A DNA stretch of 63,508 nucleotides, counting the filler, from Collodictyon triciliatum (Eukaryota), in assembly GCA_043381765.1 (NCBI GenBank). It is 8 parts of 8 records of this genome, joined end to end, with 100 filler letters (N's around TTAATTAATTAA, not from the genome) between each part and the next. Parts side by side here need not be neighbours in the genome. Positions count along the whole stretch, not along the records: positions 26,253 to 34,870 come from JBHJMP010003355.1; 7 more parts are not named here. One strand, 5' to 3'. Under the pieces are notes generated by a model. The model made no database searches. It was not told where the DNA came from and saw nothing but the letters and a program-made list of their open reading frames with translations. The translations under genes were made by a program, and so were the position numbers. This document shows positions 8,723-28,326 of the stretch, in pieces. Position 1 is the stretch's first letter. Each line of letters opens with the position of its first letter.

Positions 8723-8801
<79 letters not shown>

Positions 8802-9299
8802 TTCCGAAGCTATATGAAATCTCATCAAATATATGTCCTTACGAAGCAAATACAATAATGCAATAAAATGTTTAAAATGGATGAAAATACACATGACAAT
8901 TAATAAAGGTTGATATCGTGCTCTATAGGTGAGTAGCCCTAAATTTCCTTGTAAATGCGAGAAGAAACCTTTTATGTGCTTCCTTTTGTTGATGGGCACT
9001 ATTCGAAGTTGTAGCTATCAAAACACTACTTCGAGATAATCTGTCGATCTCGCGATTATTTTTTTTCCTTTATTCGGTTCACAGTATCAACCTCATCATT
9101 ATAATATTGGCACCCAGGATTTTATAACCAATAATTTGGCATACTCGAAGACGACGAGTTGTATCAATTCATTAAATAAAATAAAATCATATACAGCTTC
9201 AAATATTCAATACCTCCGAGAACTAAAAGAGGAATCTCAAATAACAATCGGATACTCTCAATTGCTATTACATATGGATATTTCATTCCATTTTATGAC

Positions 9300-10900
9300 A
9301 AGCAGCTTAAGTTCTAGTAGTATAATGTGCTTGATTATCGATTATTTTTTACCTCAATAGGTGTTGTTGTCACAAGTAAGCAAGAGATTTTCAGAGGTTG
9401 ATTTTCATCTTCTTTTTTTACGTTCGGATATTGTCGATTAAATTACGGAAAACTATTAAAATATATAAACAGTGATATTTTTTTTGTCAGGCTATCGAAT
9501 GAAAATAGGATAATTGTATAACTTAAAAAGGTACTTACTGTCACATTTACGCTAATACTTGATTCTAAACCAGGCAACCAATCCACAGAACACGAGGTGT
9601 GCTTGTACATTTGAAAGATGGGCATCCAGATTTATAAATCCCAGCAGCGAGCTTTTTATGGAGTATAATTTTAGATATTTGACTAACTAAGGCTATATAT
9701 GAAAAGATAAAAAAAAATAAAGAGGCAGCCAGCCTTAATCAAAAATTAGTAGGCATAAACACTCCGGTAATCCCCTTATTTTATCACTCGACTTTCCTTC
9801 CAATTCAGCGTTAGTGAGATATACATTTTTCAATTCGAAAGAAAAAGGCTTCAAAATAGAGATATTGAATCAAAATTAATGCAAAGATTAATTATAAAAA
9901 TACGAACTGCTTTTAAGGATATGATCTAAAAAAATTGTTGCTCACAAGGAGAGATATAACCCAGATGCAACCAAACAATTATACGGTCAAATAGGAGAGT
10001 TCGCGCATCCATAAACATATGATTTCTTTTCATTAATATGGGCTTTTATCAGATCGTGAACATCAAAGCCATGATGAAAAGGGACGTTATCTGGCTTTAA
10101 TATTCTGCATTTGGATAGGAATTTGTTTTAAAGGTGAGTTTTGGTATATTCATCTATAGCAGGAAGTTGGGAATAAAGTCAAAGCAACATTCAATTTTAA
10201 TTGATAAAGGCATCCAAATTTATATACATGCTTCCTGTGTAAACTCTTTTATGAAACAGAAGATGTATATAAGGTAAGAGTAATCCTAACTTAAGTTACT
10301 TCAAATTTTCTTGACTCTAATCGATAACCTATTTCTCCATGGAATATTTGAGCGTCCAATCATAGATACTATTTCTATTGGTTGGAATATTCAATCATAA
10401 TATTCCATGTCCATATGGAATCTATGATAGTAATATGTTTCTTAGAGTATAAAATCATTCTTGAAAAAACATGCATGACTGTAGTATTAGAAAGGGAAAA
10501 AGCGTTGTGCATTTTAGTGCATAATGTGATTGTATACTTCACGCAATTTTTCGATATGCACTCGCATAATTGAAATCAGATATGGTATATAATATGAGAT
10601 TTTCGGATTCGAGACAATAAAAAATGGAACGTTACCAAACCCCGGGCAAGTTCGAGTAAATTTAGAATAGCACGTTTCGTGGGCAATAAACTATCTAAAG
10701 AGAATTAGATTAAGTATCAAACTCTTAATTGCTGCTGTTTAAGATGTTTGGGTGAAAAATTAGGGTGCATGGTGCCAGATATGCCTTTAAGTTTTGGATT
10801 GAATGGGAGTTAATATACAAGTTGGTGACTTTTCTGGCAACTTTGACCATCTTTTAAACAGACTTGTTGTAAGTCTTGTTTATTTTAGGAAACAAGCAAT
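9300..10900 (-). mobile_element. Possible highly decayed non-LTR retrotransposon fragment (post-RT / C-terminal region)
   Basis: This AT-rich block has no recognisable host gene but carries broken protein-like stretches on the minus strand, such as KMVKVARKVTNLYI, LDSLLPTKRAILNLLEL and IDEYTKTHL*NKFLSKCRILKPDNVPF. They are interrupted by stops and frameshifts, with no splice-joined exon pattern. No diagnostic motif is intact. Confidence 0.25.
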
Positions 10901-11190
10901 TAGTATAATAAAGGAACTAACCTAGGGTGTCATGAAGTTTTTTCCCTTTATTCGATTCAAAGTGCAACGAGGTTAAATAGTTCATGTAGTTATAAAAGCA
11001 TAAGAAAAATTTAAAAAACGAACAGAAACTCCAAACAGAATAACACTGCCATCAAGGTCATCGACCATGAAAATCCTGTGTTTCGTTCAACATAAATGAT
11101 TGCATATGAAAATTCTATTTTATTCAAACAGAATGTTATTTACTATGTTTATAGATACGACTCTTCGATTGCTTTGAACCCAGCACCCTC

Positions 11191-11289
<99 letters not shown>

Positions 11290-11299
11290 NNNNNNNNNN

Positions 11300-11348
<49 letters not shown>

Positions 11349-11695
11349 TATGCAAATACGAGCGAATTTTAAAAATAGGTAGAAATTGACGAAATCTTTC
11401 CTTCTTATTGCGGCCCGGTTCTATCACGAAGAGAAGCACCATGCAGCGAAAAAATGCACAACCCAAACGAATCCCTTGAACATTTCGATAGGCCAACATA
11501 AAGCCGAAAAACCATTTATATAAATTACAATAAAGATGGTATATATTTTACAACCACTCATGAAGGCAAGAAGGGATTTTGTAGCGCAGTTGGCCATCAT
11601 ACCCGCTTGTCATGCGGGAGGGCTTCAGTTGTAACATGGGCAACCTCACTCTTTTTTCAGTATCATCTCGCCGCATCCTTTTTCTTTTTTTCTTA

Positions 11696-11819
11696 CTGGT
11701 TTCTTCTTATTGGTTTCTTCTTATTGGTTTCTTCTTATTGGTTTCTTCTTATTGGTTTCTTCTTATTGGTTTCTTCTTATTGGTTTCTTCTTATTGGTTT
11801 CTTCTTATTGGTTTCTTCT
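11696..11819. repeat. 14-bp tandem minisatellite (GGTTTCTTCTTATT)n, about 9 copies
   Basis: Directly visible near-perfect tandem array. Confidence 0.95.
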
Positions 11820-12187
11820 GTCATTTACCTTCTTGCTTCTGCTCCCGCGTGATTCCATCTTCTCTTTGAAATCCGTGTGTAGAAGTCACTCTAGTTTGAC
11901 CCCTCATGTCCAAACATTCCCTCAATTTTTAGCTTCTATTCAAATTCGCACAACCTCAAATATTATACATATGTACTATTGAATATGCCTGTTCAATCCT
12001 TACATCGCTTTGAAGTAGGCAGCATGCCCATAATCATGCTCGCTTTTGAGTATTATTTCGGGGGTATTGATCTATTTTCGGCATCCGAATCCTTTAACGA
12101 CCAGTATTTACTCAAACAAAATTCGTCGCATCTGATGTACTTATTTCATATTCCCTGTATAAGAAAAATTGATGATGATTGCAGTTT

Positions 12188-12244
12188 ATCTCTTGTGCCT
12201 CCTATTTTGAATCGAATAAAGGAAAAAAATCTCTTGTGACTCCT
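12188..12244 (+). mobile_element. Family A micro-retroposon copy with target-site duplication
   Basis: ATCTCTTGTGCCTCCT - ATTTTGAATCGAATAAAGGAAAAAA - ATCTCTTGTGACTCCT: a 16-bp direct repeat with 1 mismatch. Confidence 0.8.
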
Positions 12245-13462
12245 GACTTAAGTTGTTGCTCTACGTTGATTTGGCTGTAAAATACATATTTGAGAGCTTT
12301 TACGATTTGCACGTATCAACCGTACCCTTACCTTCGAAATATAAAAACATCGGGACTAGAATTAACCGATATTACAAACACAAATCGAAAGTTCATGATG
12401 TTAGTCAGGTTCCAAATGTTGAATGACAGCATTCGTATGTTTTGTGTTATGGGTTGGTGTTAGGGTTTAGCTGGGTTGGGAAAAATTGACGATTTTGTAT
12501 TGTTGCAGTTGTTTGAGTTTTCCCATTATGACATCCAGTAGAACAACAGGATTTAATGCTCTCAGGCTGTTATAATTAATCTCCATATTGCTTTTGTGAG
12601 GTTTGCTATGATGGTTATTCATGTAGTGGAAGTCAGTGATAGTGACAAAAAGAGGAAAGACTATATATCGGCAATAGAATTATACCGTTCTATCGGCTCA
12701 AAGTCCCAGGACAAAGGAATCTTTATGACGCCGCCAATACCGAGAGAATAACCTGATGGTGAATACGGACATAAGGTGATTAAACAAGCGGGATGATCAA
12801 GCAACCTCTACACCAAACCAAACCGTGAGCGGAGTGATTGATGCAATCTGGTAGCTTGAATATTGAAGACTACGAATATTTATTGGAGGCGCTTCAGTTC
12901 ACAAGCACCGATATGCATAAGGGAGCGAGAGTCAAGCATAGGTGTAGATGGACTGGGAGGCGATTTATCAGGCAATTTACCAGTATTTGTTTCGAATCAT
13001 CTCATGTTGTATTTTATGCTCTTTTCCAGCGTTGATTCGTGTGTGTATCTTCTTGTCTCTCATGTTTTTTTTTTGAAGAGTTCTTGAAAGGAGGTTGGCT
13101 CGTTAGCACAACCACCACTGACATAAATTATGCTGTCGAGCCAACCTAACGGATGTTCATGGCAACCAGAATGCGCTCTGCACAATGTGTACTCCACTCG
13201 ACAGGCCTCCTGCCTTCGTGAACACGTGACGACCCCAACCAAGTAAGTATACACAACGGATGTCAGATTGGTTACCTTGCTTCACCTCTTCTCATTGTTT
13301 ATATAGCCCCACATCCTTTTGCATGCTTTGTGTTGCGGGTCCAGAAGTGTCTCCGTAGAAAAGAAACATTCAGCTTCGAGAAAAATCACATTGAATAAAG
13401 AGCAGTGCCAGATAGCATCAATCAAGGGGCTACACATGGTCGAGGCATCAGCCGCTATCATC

Positions 13463-13590
13463 AACCTTGGTGGCATCTTCGGCCACCAAGTAGCGCCCAT
13501 GCAAACGATGGCTAGCGAACCAAAGCCAACATCTTCACCATCCTGCACAAAATTGAAAGGAAGAATAAAAAAAAACCTTGGTGGCATCTT
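13463..13590 (+). mobile_element. Family B short retroposon (SINE/LINE 3' end) with a perfect 17-bp TSD
   Basis: AACCTTGGTGGCATCTT flanks a 94-bp insert ending TCCTGCACAAAATTGAAAGGAAGAATAAAAAAA. Homologous copies begin at 41815 and 62474. Confidence 0.88.
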
Positions 13591-13833
13591 GTTCAAATAC
13601 ATGCTAATATAGGAAAGTGAGAGAATAGACACGGCTCGAGTGGGGTGCCTTGAAATCTCACTGACCTTATATACAAGGTATCCACACTCTTTACTATATC
13701 ACAAATGTATGATAAAAAGGAGAACAGGGGGAAAAAGGGTGCACAAAGGGATGGCAGGCAGTGTGAGCTGTATAAGCTCTTGGAAAGTGACCAGAGGCAA
13801 ATAATAACTGTATTCATATTCTCTCTATCCTAT

Positions 13834-13889
13834 ATAAACATCACAAGCTATTTTTTTCATTTATTCGATTCATAAACATCACGAGCTAT
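13834..13889 (-). mobile_element. Family A micro-retroposon copy with TSD
   Basis: ATAAACATCACAAGCTAT - TTTTTTCATTTATTCGATTC - ATAAACATCACGAGCTAT: an 18-bp direct repeat with 1 mismatch around a 20-bp insert. Confidence 0.8.
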
Positions 13890-13970
13890 ATTCACGAAAA
13901 GGATGGACAAGATGTGTGTAGAGTCACAGATACAGATTGTGCTGTGATTAGTCTGAGAGTGAAACACGCT

Positions 13971-14023
13971 GGAAAGTAGTTGATGTTTTTTTTTCCCCTT
14001 TATTCGAAGGAAACTAGTTTATG
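13971..14023 (-). mobile_element. Family A micro-retroposon copy with a diverged TSD
   Basis: GGAAAGTAGTTGATG - TTTTTTTTTCCCCTTTATTCGAA - GGAAACTAGTTTATG: a 15-bp direct repeat with 2 mismatches. Confidence 0.7.
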
Positions 14024-14499
14024 ATGGCGGACAAGCGCTGGATTCTTTCGGTGGGTAATATGTATGTATTGGAAGTGGTAAATCTAAGGGTGTGTGTGAT
14101 ATTACAGGATTCTTAAGGATATGAGCTATTGACACCTGACACCAGAGGAGAGGAGGTTATTCTCTGTCTTGAACATTTATCCAAGAAAGCGCATTACATA
14201 AGGGTTCCTCATACCCAATGGATTAGTTTTTTACACCGATTGGCCATCAGGACCCCAAGTTCGGCTCAAAAGATAAGCAATAACGCGAAATGGATTCTTG
14301 AAACGGAAAAAACACCAACAATTTCGGATGAGGAGAACAGTTAGAAATGAAGAAAAATGGGGTTTGAAACTCAGCAAAGGAAAACAATGCAAGAATATGG
14401 AGAAGAAAAACAGAATCTTACAAATATCCCCACGAAGATAAACAGTTTATCACTAAATACTTCTTTTTCATCTGCCTGGTCACTGAGACGCTAGGGAAT

Positions 14500-15200
14500 A
14501 ATTGAGAGAAGCATCCAGTTTCATAAAATTGTACCAATTTTTAGGTGGTATGTGGGTCGCTAAATATGAACTTAAAGGAAGTATGGAATCTCTCTCGTTC
14601 TTTGCATCGAGTAAAATCACGAAGCACTACACCATACGCCGAGCATCGGACGGAGTAATCGGCTCCATATTCGAAAAAAAAAAATACCAGGCCTTTCGAC
14701 AAGAATGACATGTGGTGGTATGTTTAAGAAATCTTCGCAGAAGAAATGAGCTTGGTGATTATTTTTTTATTACTTCATCCGATTCAAAGTGGTGTAAGGT
14801 TATGCCATAAAAGGAGCTTGAAGATAAATTCGTTGTGTTGGGATATATCAAAAGCATTTTATCCGTATGATTCAATCTTCTGCATCATATGTCACAGGGC
14901 TGGCTGGCTTCAGATACATCCCATCTTATCGCTGTAGTTTTTAGAATGGTGTTGAAAGCTTGGGATATGTAACTTCAGACATAAAATATATAATCAACAG
15001 GAGATACAGACAAGGAAGTGTAGTCTGTTAAACATGAAAGTAGATGGTTTGCGATTCCTTTCGAAACAACATGGACGCAAGTCCGCAAACACACCAACAT
15101 CAACCATCTCTGTAACGAAATGAAACAATGCTGAAAGGGCGGGGCACATTTAAGATAACTGCAGTAGCTAGTGGAGACACAGGGCTCAAAAGCAAGGCGA
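14500..15200 (+). mobile_element. Decayed non-LTR (LINE-like) reverse transcriptase remnant
   Basis: Remnants of RT motifs appear in the expected order and roughly the expected spacing across frameshifts: YQAFRQ at about 14685 (compare QxGFR), DISKAF at about 14843 (compare DxxKAFD), RQGSVV at about 15008 (compare GxRQGxxLSP) and ITAVASGD at about 15155 (compare LAYADD, degenerate). Confidence 0.5.
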
Positions 15201-15310: not shown

Positions 15311-15383
15311 TGCTCACAGCAGGGATCGAACCTACGACCTTGGCGTTATTAGCACCACGCTCTACCAACTAAGCTATGCGAGC
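15311..15383 (-). tRNA. tRNA-Ile (anticodon AAT)
   Basis: The reverse complement GCTCGCATAGCTTAGTTGGTAGAGCGTGGTGCTAATAACGCCAAGGTCGTAGGTTCGATCCCTGCTGTGAGCA folds as a cloverleaf, with anticodon loop CTAATAA and T-loop GTTCGAT. Confidence 0.96.
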
Positions 15384-16641: not shown

Positions 16642-17433
<792 letters not shown>

Positions 17434-18918: not shown

Positions 18919-19897
18919 ATTATTCATTTACTGGATCCATGTCTGAAAATATTTTAAATTGGTTATTCCCTAATAAAGCCACCAACAATATTGTTATTGT
19001 TTTCAGTGTCTTATTTCCCTGCTTCGAATAGTGTCTTGGATAATTTTTTGTGTGCACCCAATATTTTCAATCTCTAAATAAAAGCATGTCGTAAAACAAA
19101 AGAATTAGAATTTTTAACGCTTTAATTTGACTTCGTAAAATGAAAAAAAAATTAAAAATTAGATAAAATTGGTATCTTATCTCCTTGGTATTGTAATAAA
19201 ATCATACTATTGGTTAACAAGATTACAATTTACCGTTCATGCTTTACATATTGCTGTGCACGTTTGTACAATGTCATTTACACATAAAAAGATATTTCGT
19301 TATGGTGGTTGTTCTTGTATGTGCTGGTGCAACTAGACCTCTTGAAACAAAGTAATTTTTACTCTTCGTGAAATCTCATTCAAAGAAGACGGCTCATACA
19401 CCACAACGCCAGGCTCCATAGCATTCCACACACAAGATGCACAGCCAACCACAGCCAACCTTGAATAACAAAAGAAAATGGCGCTCATGCAGACCAATCT
19501 CATACGACATCCCGTCGCCATTCTTTTTCCGCCTCAAGAACGAACGCTCGTCTAACGGTGCGCAGTCTATGCATCTCTCGTTGGCTATGGCCTACTCCAA
19601 ATTCTTTCGATACAAAATATCGCCGCCACACACCATAAAAAAAAGTCAAAACATCAATAGTGGGGAGAAACACTAGAAATCACCCACACCCCGCTCACCG
19701 CAAGCTGGAGACAAGCACGAACCCCGCAAGTCCTTCTAAATCATCGCTATCTAATTCTTAATATCATCAATAGAGTAGTTATGTGGTAAGAGAAATGTGG
19801 AAAGAGGCCAATTAAGATGCTGAACCTCGCCTTTCCCTTACCATGATTTCACAAGACTTACGCTACAGGACTAAAATCATAATGAAATGCTTTATAG

Positions 19898-22800
19898 GCG
19901 ACTACTTCTCTGCCCAGCTACCAAGTGGCTCCTGTGCAAGCAAAGGCGAGCCCTCAAAACCCAAGGCCAGCCCCATTGCACCCTAACTCCCATCGGCTCT
20001 GTTCTGAACAAAATATTCTGGGTGATTTCCCGCAATCATGCCATTTGTATATTCCAAAAAAGGATGCGCTGTGCTTTTCGCTGAAGCGCATGTTGGAAAA
20101 GTCTTCTTCGGCGAAATCTCAAGCAGCCTGCCAACAATTCTCCAACACAGCGACGGACTTAAATGCGAGCCACCACGCCCATGCAACCAATAGACCCATT
20201 ACAAGGAAGAAAAAAAAAAAAAAGGAGGAAAAAAGAAAGACCTAACTGCTTCTTGCCCTAATAAATGCAAGGTGTTGCACAAACCAAAGAGCAAAGGCAA
20301 CCGTCTGCATGAGCCAGGAGAGCTTCTTTTCAGGACTTACATTCACGTGCGTAGGGCTTCGGGCTGAGGTACAGTACGCACGAGGGAAAAAAATAATAAA
20401 AATTCAGAGACAAAAATGAAGTAAACCATCTCAAAGTAATATTTTTTTATTGTCACTTTTCTTTTTCTGTGACCCCAAAGCATTTATCTTTTGCGTTCAT
20501 TCTTGAGCTGTGTGATGGATAGCGTTCATTTTAGACATGTGGTTTCAGGACTTTTTCACGAATGATTCCTATTCCTAATTTCTGTCCTACTTTTCAAACA
20601 ACAGGTCAGCTCCAAGCTCTCGGAATGTATCAATAAGTATGGAGGGGTCTTTGAAATTAACCATCAGGAGTTAGGAATTGGTGTTGGATATATTGTTGTA
20701 CCCCATCAAATTGAAGCAGCTGAAGTCGTGGTTCTCCAAAGGAAGAGCCCCTTAGCCAATCTAGTTACAACTGATTTTATAGACAGATGCATCATGGTAC
20801 TCTCGGAGTAACTATTTTTCTTCGATGTGTTAAGTCTTACTTATTTGCTCATTTTAACCGTAAATTAATTTGTCATCTTGAAAAGGATAAAGCTCTTCCT
20901 GACATTGAGTCGCATATACTATTCAAGCCAATCGTCGCAAATCCTGCCATGGCAAATGTTATTTTGTCGATATCCCAATATTCTTCTGTGGAGAAACAAG
21001 ATATTGAAGCTGTTGCCAAACTCATGAACGTTAGAATTACGAAGGAGTTTTCTAAGCAGAACACACATTTGGTTTGTGGATCTCCATCAGGCAGTAAATA
21101 CCTTGCGGCCATAAAATGGAAAAAGAATATCATCAGTTCTGAGTGGATTTATGAATGTGCCAAAAAAGTAAAAAAATAAAATAAATCATAATAACAATAA
21201 TAATTAAAGATTAAATCGAAGCATATGTCATTACCATGAACATTTCATCACATCATAAGATTAGGCCTTATATTCTGGTTTACATGCATGATAAAAACAA
21301 ATATTTTGTGTTCTCAAGTGCATCAGAGATTTAATTGTATGTGCAAACTTTATAGGGGACATATCTTGACATAGATTTTTTTGCAGTGAATCGCACGCCA
21401 GAAAAAGACTTCAAAAATGGAAATTCTATCAAAACAAAGGAATTGCAAATGGCAGATGGGGTATATTGCCAAAATAAAGCAAAACCCTCTGGTATACTTT
21501 TTCCTTTTTATTATTAAATACTGTTGGGCTTATTCATGTACATTATCATTAGATATAATCCTATGCCACGAAAAAAAATTCAAAGTAATTAAAGTTGAAC
21601 TTTGCTCTTTGATAGAGACGACATTTTCGATCAAGAAAAATGAAAACAAAACAGAGTTTGTCAATACGAAATATGTATAACACCTAATATACACGACACT
21701 AGCAATGTGAAGTAAAGAGTGATAAAATCAAAAAAAAAAATTAACCCCAGTATCAATATCAGATGTTCGATATTAAATGGATGCAAAATATTCCTTTTCG
21801 AAGAATTGAAAGTAAGCAAGAATCCCTTAAACGGAATTTTTTCTTTTTTACACGATAAAGAATTGCTATGTAACGTACACATACATATATATATATATCA
21901 AGACTTGTTCTTATGAGAAAAACCAACAGAAAGACAAAGTTATATCTCAGATGATAGTCGATATGAGTGGAAAAATTGCTACAAATTTAGACGAAACATG
22001 CTCGCATGTTATAAGAAGTATGTTCGTTGATCATTCAATCTGTAGTCTCTCAATCCTTTTGTTGAAAGAGCGTGTAAGCTAAAGAAACACTAATTTTTGT
22101 ATTTGTTTTTATTTTAGATGTGAATGGAGAAACAGGAGAGCTTGGATTAGGAATGGAGCATCTGAAGATAAGCGATGCGACAGTCTTGTCTCCAAGTTGG
22201 ATCTATGATGTACTCATACTACATGATATTTTAAATATATCTTTTGTATTTTTATGACACTATATGTTTTTATTTTTCGATGTTGCTGCTCGATACTATA
22301 GTCGTAAAAATTGTCATTAAAAGTAAAAACAAAACAGTGCTGGAAATTCTCCAAGAAAATGAACGAAGCGGACTACATCTGGCCAAACAATCCACTATTT
22401 CCAGATAAAATTTCACTACAGTATAATGACGGTAATAATATTAACATTTATTTCATTTCGACATCCAGTTTCCAATCGCACCACATCCCTTCTCAATGGA
22501 TGCTTAAAAATTGAGAATGATATAATTGGCCTTACCATATAAATTATGACCTTATTGCATTGATTGAGTAATCTATTTTCAATTCATTTTCAATATTTAA
22601 ACTCGCATTTATTTTTTCTTTATTTGACATTCTTATTTATCTATCGCAATTTTTTTTAAAAAGAAATAATCATTTTTATAATAAAAATGAATTATATTCA
22701 GAAAACAAGGATAATTTTACAAAGAATACACTGTCGTCATCGAAGATATCCTTCAAGGTTGATAGATTAACAGAAGGGCAAACAAGATTGATATCCTCTC

Positions 22801-26661: not shown

Positions 26662-28326
26662 AAGCCAACCCGTTCAGCACACACAAACCTCCCGGTCCTA
26701 CAAGGTCATGAAAATCCAATACCCATATCTCACAACGAATACTTATTCAAAATACTGATCGTCGGACCCTCGGGCTCTGGGAAATCGTCATTTGTTCGTC
26801 GACTCGTTTTCAATCAGTTCACAGAAAACTCTTTGGCGACAATATCCACCCCACATGAAGATAATTATATCAAACATTTAGTATTTTCTAATCATGGGAA
26901 AAAAAAGCGATAATAATTAAGTGAATGCAAATGATGATAATAGACAAATACATAAAACATTAAAATAAACAGCCAATGTGAATTTTTTCTCGAAATCCTC
27001 CAAAGTGAATCCTACATTTAAAAGAATGAAAAGAAAAGAGTTCTTTAACGCACACAAATCGGGGTAGACTATGCTTTGAAAGTGATTAAATGGGATGAAG
27101 ATACGGTGGTGCGGCTTCAAATGTGGGATATAGCTGGTCAAGACAGGAATCAGACTTTATCAAGAGTATTTCAAACCACATTAATACGATGATGTAGCTA
27201 TAAGTTTAAATAAATGACAAATGCCTACACTTAAAAAAGACAATTATTCACTCACGATGGATTGTTTATCATGAATTCATATCCAGACATTCTACAAAGA
27301 GGCAGTTGGTGCTTTTATTGCTTTCGACTTATCTCGTCCTGAAACACTTACCGAGACACTGTCGTGGAAAAGTGCACTGGATGAAATTGCGCAAGAAATG
27401 GGGGTGTACAAAATACCAACTATACTGCTCATTACAAAGGTAATAGTGTAGAAGAATGTGCCAATCATCATTTGATTGTAAGCATTACGGAATGGACACA
27501 TATAAATAATTTATAATTTCTACCGCAGCTTGTAAGATGCACTTTTTTGTCTCGGGTTATTTATATAGATTGATGCTGCGTCTGAAGGAAGCAGAAGAAT
27601 TCTCCAGGATATGGATATGATTATATCGAGTCATAAATTCACGACATGGTGGGTTGTGGTACCTCTTGACACTTTTTTTTTTAAAAAAAAAAATATTCAA
27701 GGAGAACCCCCATGGAGTTTTCTGAATAATTTAGTATGCATTCTGTAAATATGCTATACATCTTACAGCCTGTTTATACTTGAGGAATATCTACCAAATT
27801 CCAAAGCTGTCTCATTCTTATTAAAAAAAATTAATCAAGCTCTTCTTTTAAACATTTGGATAGTTTATATAGATAAGACTGCCGGATGTACTTGTTTTGT
27901 TTTGTCTTTGTCTTTGTCTTTGTCTTTGTCTTTGTCTTTGTCTTTGTCTTTGTCTTTGTCTTTGTCTTTGTCTTTGTCTTTGTCTTTGTCTTTTCCTTTT
28001 TCTTTGTCTTTGTTCTGCTTTTTTCTGTTTTGTTTTGTTTTCTTTTTTTTATTCATTAAAGATACTATATCCACATTTAACTAAATCTCGCATCGCTTTG
28101 AATCGAATAAAGGAAAAAAACAACTAAATCTCGCATTGAAATTCCATTAACTAGGATTGGTATCTCATCAAAGGATTCGAAAAACGTTGAAGAAGCAGTT
28201 CGCGCCATGATTGATTCCGTGATAACTTACGTCAAGGTCTCAGGGAGAGCCTCGCAAGTAACAGAAACGGTCAACGATACCATATGTTTACCATCCACCC
28301 AACCCGCAAGTCGAAAATGTTGTTAG
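26662..28326 (+). CDS. RAB32: Rab32/38/29-family small GTPase (5 exons; first intron U12-type AT-AA)
   Basis: Motifs EYLFKILIVGPSGSGKSS, AT/IGVDYALKVIKWDEDTVVRLQMWDIAGQ (WDIAGQ is the Rab32/38/29 hallmark), FYKEAVGAFIAFD, LLITK/ID and C-terminal RKCC*. Exons are at about 26662-26841, 27058-27165, 27288-27438, 27569-27648 and 28155-28326. Confidence 0.88.
28079..28136 (+). mobile_element. Family A micro-retroposon with a perfect 15-bp TSD, in the last Rab32 intron
   Basis: AACTAAATCTCGCAT - CGCTTTGAATCGAATAAAGGAAAAAAAC - AACTAAATCTCGCAT. Confidence 0.88.

What the first reader, a model, noticed from the sequence alone, without database searches (positions are those of the whole stretch)
28079..28136. 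Family A: ultra-short (about 20-45 bp) poly(A)-tailed inserts with long target-site duplications on independent scaffolds
Seen: the motif ...CGCTTTGAATCGAATAAAGG(A)n recurs in both orientations at about 9059, 10938, 12204, 13852, 13986, 28094 and 42825, on three scaffolds. Four copies have 15-18 bp flanking direct repeats with 0-2 mismatches, two have shorter or weaker ones, and one has none that I can see. All share the 3' end (AATAAA-like signal plus A-tail) and differ in 5' extent. Established: a variable 5' end, A-tail and variable-length TSD are the signature of target-primed reverse transcription by non-LTR elements. Inference: a LINE/SINE system here leaves mostly abortive inserts barely longer than their own TSD. 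Different TSD divergence suggests activity over a long period. Inserts this small are easily missed by repeat finders, and seven in 63 kb would imply a high genome-wide number. An RNA-templated patch at staggered breaks is an alternative reading.
Basis: partly seen in the sequence, partly recalled or inferred. Interest (0 to 1): 0.8.

Follow-up and report, generated by a model that had tools for sequence, protein, structure and literature searches.

The report
Ultra-short LINE tail stubs
These tiny A-tailed inserts are the last 10 to 45 bases of an L1-like jumping gene, pasted thousands of times into this eukaryote's genome by its normal mechanism; the one unusual thing is that so many stop at almost the same base, about 18 from the end.

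Summary
Confirmed. The insert at 28079-28136 is 20 nt of element plus an 8-nt A-tail between perfect 15-bp duplications. The motif is the 3' end of an L1/Tx1-like LINE (APE, RT, zf-RVT) in the same genome. The 17-mer has 2028 exact hits, reversed control 0. Of 100 copies not selected for 5' extent, 94 are under 60 nt and 71 of these have TSDs (swap control mean 0.36); 62 of 100 end 16-20 nt from the tail. Genome-wide counts suggest about 26-32% of copies of 17 nt or more reach 28 nt. The nick site is T|A; 5' microhomology is at chance level. A SINE-like repeat shares 17 of the last 18 nt but stops there less often (38/94 vs 37/55). Best reading: TPRT that fails early, most often at the foot of a weak 3'-UTR hairpin; a pre-cut RNA template is the main rival. 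The scan found this family before on other pieces of this genome (23 notes). Known process, unusually extreme and stereotyped.

The parts
28079..28093 (+). Left copy of the 15-bp target-site duplication
   Evidence: Identical to 28122-28136
28094..28113 (+). Last 20 nt of the LINE-A 3' UTR, holding AATAAA just before the tail
   Evidence: Same terminus as RT-bearing loci L051, L052, L056, L068; variant with G at position 19 as in L140
28114..28121 (+). Short A-tail (7 A and one C)
28122..28136 (+). Right copy of the TSD
12188..12244 (+). Stub: about 17-19 nt of element plus tail, 16-bp TSD with 1 mismatch
   Evidence: a contig of run X2 spans it in the filled state
13834..13892 (-). Stub: 14-16 nt of element plus tail, TSD 21 bp with 2 mismatches counting the A-run
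13971..14023 (-). Stub: about 12 nt of element, GGGG, A-tail, 15-bp TSD with 2 mismatches
10930..10991 (-). Stub: about 32 nt of element, weak 10-bp TSD
   Evidence: (L041); a contig of run X1 covers it in the filled state
42818..42874 (-). Stub: about 27 nt of element, weak 10-bp TSD
9059..9083 (-). Degenerate stub, no TSD found

Best explanation
Each insert is a dead-on-arrival copy of the 3' tip of an L1/Tx1-like LINE (LINE-A). Shown: the ORF2 has APE endonuclease, RT and zf-RVT domains, a 3' UTR of about 95 nt, and ends in this motif plus about 8 A. Inferred from the products and from known L1 TPRT: the endonuclease nicks at T|A, 1-3 T at the nick prime on the A-tail, about 8 A and a short piece of 3' UTR are copied, the second strand is cut 15-18 bp away, and the cDNA is joined without needing microhomology. 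Inferred and least certain: the first roughly 45 nt are a fragile phase in which synthesis often ends, and the commonest end (16-19 nt) is where the RT meets the foot of a small hairpin in the LINE-A 3' UTR. Identity as LINE tips about 0.95; the stop mechanism about 0.55. The stubs have no function shown; each carries an AATAAA.
For: Parent: 4 RT loci end in the motif in sense orientation; APE, RT, zf-RVT; best solved relative human L1 ORF2p, E 2e-32, against R2 at 3e-19. Nested 5' ends from 9 nt to over 1.7 kb. TSD 15-18 bp in 55 of 71; 6 of 29 longer copies examined had a TSD, 13-18 bp (the 15 rows at about 700-730 nt end at an alignment break, not a true 5' end). Nick: T at -1 in 40 of 51 (background 0.38, P 6e-9), A/T at -2 in 48 of 51 (P 4e-6). 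Stop hazard per nt: 0.23 at 16-19, 0.01-0.02 below, 0.04-0.09 at 20-45, 0 of 6 at 46-85 (97 copies). The stop does not move with tail length (rho 0.003, n 58), so it is set by sequence, not by total distance. RNAalifold on 47 long copies gives one hairpin, pairing positions 39-33 with 18-24, whose 3' foot is base 18; 96% of cells pair and the one polymorphic site keeps U-A or U-G. The SINE-like repeat has the same tail but other sequence upstream and stops by 22 nt less often: 38 of 94 vs 37 of 55, Fisher P 0.002. Both G-run classes show the peak: 33 of 63 and 22 of 34.
Against: The hairpin is weak: -2.8 kcal/mol, no pair with a change on both sides, no excess over column shuffles, z -1.46 for the 24-nt piece and -0.33 for the last 45 nt, pair probabilities 0.2-0.4. 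I noticed it after seeing the peak. SINE-type copies also pile up at exactly 18 (25 of 63 rows); by my rough estimate only about 10-12 of the 112 genome-wide hits would be mutated LINE-type stubs, so part of the peak does not need the LINE hairpin. Human ORF2p is highly processive, and the authors favour host cleavage of RNA or intermediates over polymerase failure (PMC10830420, passages). No RNA or biochemical data. The 100-copy sample comes from the first contigs and undercounts long copies (6% there; 15-19% genome-wide).
Confidence: 0.55

Rival explanations
1. Pre-cut template: host decay (5'-to-3' exonuclease stopped by bound ORF2p or poly(A)-binding protein, or an endonucleolytic cut) leaves a 3' fragment of about 18 nt plus tail in a still active RNP, which is copied to its end. 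The stubs would be complete copies of a small RNA.
For: No microhomology above chance (mean 0.95 vs 0.75-0.78, P 0.14-0.18, n 39) and 1-2 extra nucleotides in 11 of 53 clean junctions, as expected for run-off. The peak coincides with the 18 nt shared by LINE-A and the SINE-like repeat. SINE-type copies also show 25 of 63 rows at 18. PMC10830420 favours host cleavage as the cause of truncation (passages).
Against: 56 of 94 SINE-type copies pass 22 nt although they have the same tail. Stops also occur at 9-15 and 20-45 nt, so no single footprint. LINE-C, with another tail, gives short copies spread over 15-63 nt with no sharp peak (31 copies).
Confidence: 0.3
2. Filter only: truncation is ordinary, and long copies are purged by selection or collapsed in a fragmented assembly, leaving the short ones.
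For: 14,576 contigs; 3 of the 6 long copies in the sample run off a contig end; genome-wide counts give more long copies than the sample.
Against: A filter on length cannot make a 5- to 10-fold hazard peak in a 4-nt window between 15 and 20 nt, nor thousands of copies under 28 nt in absolute number.
Confidence: 0.06
3. An independent 18-nt micro-SINE with a fixed 5' end, mobilised in trans.
For: 51 of 100 copies begin at 17-19 nt.
Against: The sequence is colinear with the LINE-A end and longer copies extend base by base into it; 18 nt leaves no room for an internal promoter; host flank abuts the 5' end directly, so no master locus is co-copied.
Confidence: 0.05
4. Endonuclease-independent RNA patch at pre-existing staggered breaks.
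For: No microhomology requirement at the 5' junction.
Against: Narrow TSD of 15-18 bp, T|A nick preference, and the element's own tail in every copy. A de novo scan for TSD-insert-A-run structures gave 124 vs 24 reversed; 94 fell in the LINE-A/SINE or LINE-C classes, and zero-length inserts were 10 in both sets.
Confidence: 0.04

Closest known systems
5'-truncated insertions of L1-clade LINEs made by target-primed reverse transcription (human L1 as reference)
   Same: APE-RT-zf-RVT parent, A-tail, TSD within the 6-20 bp range given in PMC3514663 (passages), T|A nick (the L1 consensus itself is recalled), nested 5' ends.
   Different: Length and uniformity. Tumour L1 inserts called severely truncated average 585 bp (PMC3514663) and most new LINE inserts are a few hundred bp (PMC10830420); here about 70% of copies of 17 nt or more hold under 28 nt, with a 4-nt peak. 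Tail about 8 A. Microhomology at chance level; ZfL2-2 is reported with about 50% microhomology and 40% extra nucleotides (PMC2666801, passages), which was not chance-corrected in the passage I saw.
Stringent-type L1-clade SINE/LINE pairs (maize ZmSINE2/3 with LINE1-1_ZM; the green-algal L1-clade pair), PMC3472496
   Same: [quoted passage not shown]
   Different: The shared stretch is only about 18 nt (about 50 nt in the monocot case) and forms no stable hairpin by itself (MFE 0); no compensatory changes found here.
SINEs
   Same: Non-coding, A-tailed, TSD-flanked, mobilised by LINE proteins.
   Different: The stubs have no head or promoter and no sign of being re-copied; they are products, not elements.

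Membership tests
5'-truncated non-LTR (TPRT) insertion | Colinear with the 3' end of an RT-coding non-LTR element | tested here: met
5'-truncated non-LTR (TPRT) insertion | A-tail and variable-length TSD above chance | tested here: met
   71 of 94 vs swap mean 0.36; TSD 9-22 bp, mode 17. The tail was part of the search pattern.
5'-truncated non-LTR (TPRT) insertion | Empty site in another individual | tested here: inconclusive
   Four runs laid at low depth; no joint listed; pieces at 10938 and 12204 are filled
L1/Tx1 clade LINE (parent) | ORF2 with N-terminal APE, RT and C-terminal zinc-binding domain | tested here: met
   PF03372 in L082, PF00078, PF13966 in L091 and four others; domains seen in different broken copies linked by 86-92% DNA identity
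L1/Tx1 clade LINE (parent) | RT groups with L1/Tx1 in a phylogeny | tested here: inconclusive
   No tree built. Best solved match human L1 ORF2p; named hits include LINE-1-like and Tx1 labels at 27-36% identity
L1/Tx1 clade LINE (parent) | ORF1 and an intact, active full-length copy | tested here: inconclusive
   L082 has broken upstream frames with no meaningful Pfam match; no intact copy among those fetched
SINE (the stubs themselves) | Pol III promoter head and fixed full length | tested here: not met
   Inserts hold only 9-45 nt of LINE tail; TSD abuts the 5' end
tRNA-derived SINE (the partner repeat, e.g. L255, L265) | About 290 nt, dispersed, A-tail, TSDs, LINE-derived tail | tested here: met
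   Copies share about 290 nt; TSDs clear on truncated copies, weak on full-length ones
tRNA-derived SINE (the partner repeat, e.g. L255, L265) | tRNA-derived head with A and B boxes | tested here: inconclusive
   Two 11-mers match the recalled A- and B-box consensus at 10 of 11 by eye; Rfam found no tRNA match in L250
Stringent-type LINE | Conserved 3' stem-loop required for RT recognition | not testable with these tools
   Needs a retrotransposition assay; predicted hairpin weak, no compensatory pairs

The most novel reading that the evidence does not exclude
This L1 lineage has a defined checkpoint about 18 nt into cDNA synthesis, set by the 3'-terminal RNA element that it shares with its SINE. 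Either the RT must be released from that element to go on, or the host trims LINE RNA back to it, so that most retrotransposition events are turned into harmless 26-bp scars. The genome would then be a natural record, thousands of events deep and at single-base resolution, of the step that decides LINE 5' truncation.
Probability: 0.3. Interest if true: 0.72.

Novelty: new variant of a known kind. Interest (0 to 1): 0.48.

Why it matters
Why LINE insertions are 5'-truncated is described as not well understood (PMC10830420). A family in which over half of sampled events end within 4 nt gives a sharp, testable read-out: RNA structure, protein footprint or host nuclease. In practice, thousands of 15-50 bp inserts with 15-18 bp duplications look like small indels and fall below usual repeat-annotation lengths (inference), so LINE activity in such genomes may be undercounted. 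The mechanism class itself is ordinary.

Tried and rejected
Terminal 18-mer as a self-contained hairpin: MFE 0 kcal/mol, z 0.78; rejected. Fixed total distance from the priming site: element length does not correlate with tail length; rejected, with the caveat that tails slip after insertion. Microhomology-driven stop: at chance level; an apparent excess in longer copies depends on how classes are drawn, so it is not claimed. Full-length micro-element of about 32 nt starting at TTAACC: only 15 genome hits, two extend further; rejected. LINE-C as source of the motif: it has a different 3' end. Family B as a second LINE: the 1.7-kb homologies belong to a host repeat on the other strand, and no ORF2 match belongs to the shared 290 nt. 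Link of the position-21 allele to G-run length: P 0.09; not shown. Expression: no RNA holder listed. Empty sites: no joint in four low-depth runs, uninformative. Metagenome scan for the 28-mer: 1 locus, L339, a long LINE-A end. Rfam finds nothing at the inserts. Host lineage was not determined. Paper searches (listings only unless stated) showed no title or abstract opening that describes a LINE family dominated by sub-30-nt stubs; subscription journals, Repbase and Dfam were not searched and no supplements were read, so a prior description is not excluded.

Full report
Observation. The window is eight scaffolds joined by spacers from a eukaryote (U1 snRNA, tRNAs, polyubiquitin); the lineage was not determined. 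At 28079-28136 a perfect 15-bp repeat encloses 20 nt of motif and an 8-nt A-tail. The other six copies are as described: three more with 15-21 bp repeats and 1-2 mismatches, two with 10-bp repeats, one with none. The 17-mer matches 7 times at up to 2 mismatches against 0.02 expected. In the 75.4-Mb genome it has 2028 exact hits, control 0.

Parent element. PF00078 gave 135 matches in the genome, 150 of 170 candidates scored. Of the 30 loci returned, four (L051, L052, L056, L068) end in the motif downstream of the RT in sense orientation. Open frames of this family carry APE (L082), RT and zf-RVT (L091 and four others); the copies are 86-92% alike. The stop codon lies about 95 nt before the tail. 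The RT is closest to human L1 ORF2p among solved structures (E 2e-32; R2 3e-19), and database relatives are 27-36% identical, some labelled LINE-1-like or Tx1. No tree was built and no intact copy was seen. At least 40 copies cover 660 nt or more of the 3' end (40 of 1171 candidates scored).

Length distribution. I searched a 9-nt core plus tail (2076 hits, control 18) and examined the first 100 listed, which are unselected for 5' extent. 94 hold under 60 nt of element; 62 end at 16-20 nt and 51 at 17-19. 71 of the 94 have a TSD (swap control mean 0.36, max 2 in 50 swaps), 55 of 71 being 15-18 bp; median inserted length is 26 bp. With 3 SINE-type rows dropped, the stop hazard per nucleotide is 0.024 (9-12), 0.011 (13-15), 0.229 (16-19), 0.050 (20-25), 0.094 (26-33), 0.042 (34-45) and 0 of 6 (46-85). 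This sample comes from the first contigs and undercounts long copies. Genome-wide exact counts are 2028 (17 nt or more), 428 (28 or more) and 250 (46 or more). Assuming 96-98% per-base identity, that is 2,900-4,100 copies of 17 nt or more, 26-32% reaching 28 nt and 15-19% reaching 46 nt. Collapse of long copies in a fragmented assembly would raise the long share further. A de novo scan of all held sequence found 124 TSD-insert-A-run structures against 24 in reversed sequence; the shortest family member was 9 nt and zero-length inserts were no more common than in the control.

Junctions. In 51 clean sites (2 more did not start with A) the base before the duplication is T in 40 (background 0.38, P 6e-9) and the one before that A or T in 48 (P 4e-6); the duplication begins with 1-3 A in 48. 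This fits an L1-type endonuclease (consensus recalled) and priming by very few T. At the 5' junction of 53 clean cases, 39 have zero or more overlapping bases (mean 0.95 against 0.75-0.78 simulated, P 0.14-0.18), 11 have 1-2 extra bases, and 3 reflect diverged element sequence. So no microhomology requirement is detectable at this sample size. TSD mismatches range from 0 to 3, and both the GG and the longer-G-run classes show the peak (33 of 63, 22 of 34), so it persisted over time.

Why 18? Three observations bear on it. First, the stop does not move with tail length. Second, consensus folding of 47 long copies gives one hairpin pairing positions 39-33 with 18-24, so its 3' foot is the modal stop. 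Support is thin: -2.8 kcal/mol, no double-sided change, no excess over column shuffles, z -1.46, pair probabilities 0.2-0.4, and it was seen after the peak. The 18-mer alone does not fold. Third, a repeat of about 290 nt with an A/B-box-like head (boxes recalled and matched by eye; Rfam silent) ends in 17 of the same 18 nt but differs upstream. Its 18-mer has 112 hits. Of the first 100 listed, 31 were already known to reach 27 nt (one search list), 63 were examined and 6 were not fetched; 38 of 94 stop by 22 nt against 37 of 55 LINE-type copies at equal stringency (P 0.002). But 25 of the 63 stop at exactly 18, more than mutated LINE stubs should supply by a rough estimate, so the shared tail may itself set part of the peak. 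A second L1-like family (LINE-C, RT 74% identical; 962 core hits) also leaves short copies, spread over 15-63 nt without a sharp peak (31 copies). Very early ending is therefore general in this genome; the sharp peak is mostly particular to LINE-A.

Mechanism. Shown: identity as LINE tips, TSDs, nick preference, the peak. Inferred: TPRT with a fragile first phase of about 45 nt, ending most often at the hairpin foot (0.55). Main rival: a host-trimmed 3' RNA fragment copied to its end (0.3), which suits the lack of microhomology and the view in PMC10830420 (passages) that ORF2p is processive and host cleavage is the likelier cause. PMC10830416 (passages) shows human ORF2p binding a template stem-loop beside a 15-nt single-stranded tract and splaying the stem base, so a hairpin about 18 nt upstream of a short tail is a plausible anchor; applying this here is inference. 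PMC2666801 (passages) shows that NHEJ factors shorten LINE inserts, so host repair may finish either route.

Other individuals. Seven runs hold 0.05-0.12 of the words of 8800-15200; none is on record as RNA. Four runs were laid: short contigs with few differences cover the 10938 and 12204 stubs in the filled state, loose ends run on into LINE-A and LINE-C sequence, and no empty-site joint is listed. Depth is too low to conclude, and these runs may not be independent of the assembly's source.

Comparison and novelty. It works like, and is, 5'-truncated L1-clade TPRT. It differs in scale: tumour L1 inserts called severely truncated average 585 bp (PMC3514663, passages). An L1-clade LINE sharing its tail with a SINE is uncommon but known (PMC3472496, part 1 of 3 read). 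Eight paper searches listed nothing on a family dominated by sub-30-nt stubs, within the limits of that library; supplements were not read. The scan has noted this family on many other pieces of this genome; those notes match the reading I had already entered and are not independent support. New here are the genome-wide counts, the hazard profile, the junction null test and the SINE comparison. Verdict: real, a new variant of a known kind, interest 0.48.

Noticed in passing
window 13463-13590 (+); also 62472-62554, 41811-41846, 19782-19944: Copies of a second L1-like family (LINE-C). The first has about 87 nt of element, an A-tail and a perfect 17-bp TSD. 962 exact core hits genome-wide; short copies spread over 15-63 nt.
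   Followed up: partly
L255:1396-1687, L265, L256, L094:8369-8655 (not in the window): SINE-like repeat of about 290 nt with A/B-box-like head that shares 17 of the last 18 nt with LINE-A; 112 exact hits of its 18-mer. No look-alike in earlier notes by sequence.
   Followed up: partly
L250, L251, L257, L258, L262, L274 (about 1.4 kb upstream of the SINE): A dispersed 82-85% identical repeat with broken frames on the opposite strand carries the SINE at one position, so the SINE copy was probably amplified with it. A short peptide motif reminded me of Fanzor/TnpB (recalled); Pfam found nothing meaningful.
   Followed up: partly
L264, L266, L267, L268, L272: A second larger repeat (86-88% alike over 1.7 kb) holds both a LINE-C end and a SINE variant.
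   Followed up: no
L076, L085, L095: LINE-A copies lie beside related LRR-coding stretches in three loci (72-75% alike), perhaps a duplicated block.
   Followed up: no
window 13089-13250 (-), 15311-15383 (-), 34453-34525 (-): U1 snRNA, tRNA-Ile and tRNA-Thr genes; U1 lies among the stubs, no link shown.
   Followed up: no
   Followed up: no
L037, L224, L296: Nested events: a stub inside the TSD of another (L037, L224) and a LINE-C end directly after a SINE tail (L296).
   Followed up: no
L046 (G000:C929): Ty3/gypsy-type LTR retrotransposon frame of at least 1161 aa without stops.
   Followed up: no
window 16642-17433 (+): Polyubiquitin with directly joined monomers, cut by the scaffold end.
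   Followed up: no
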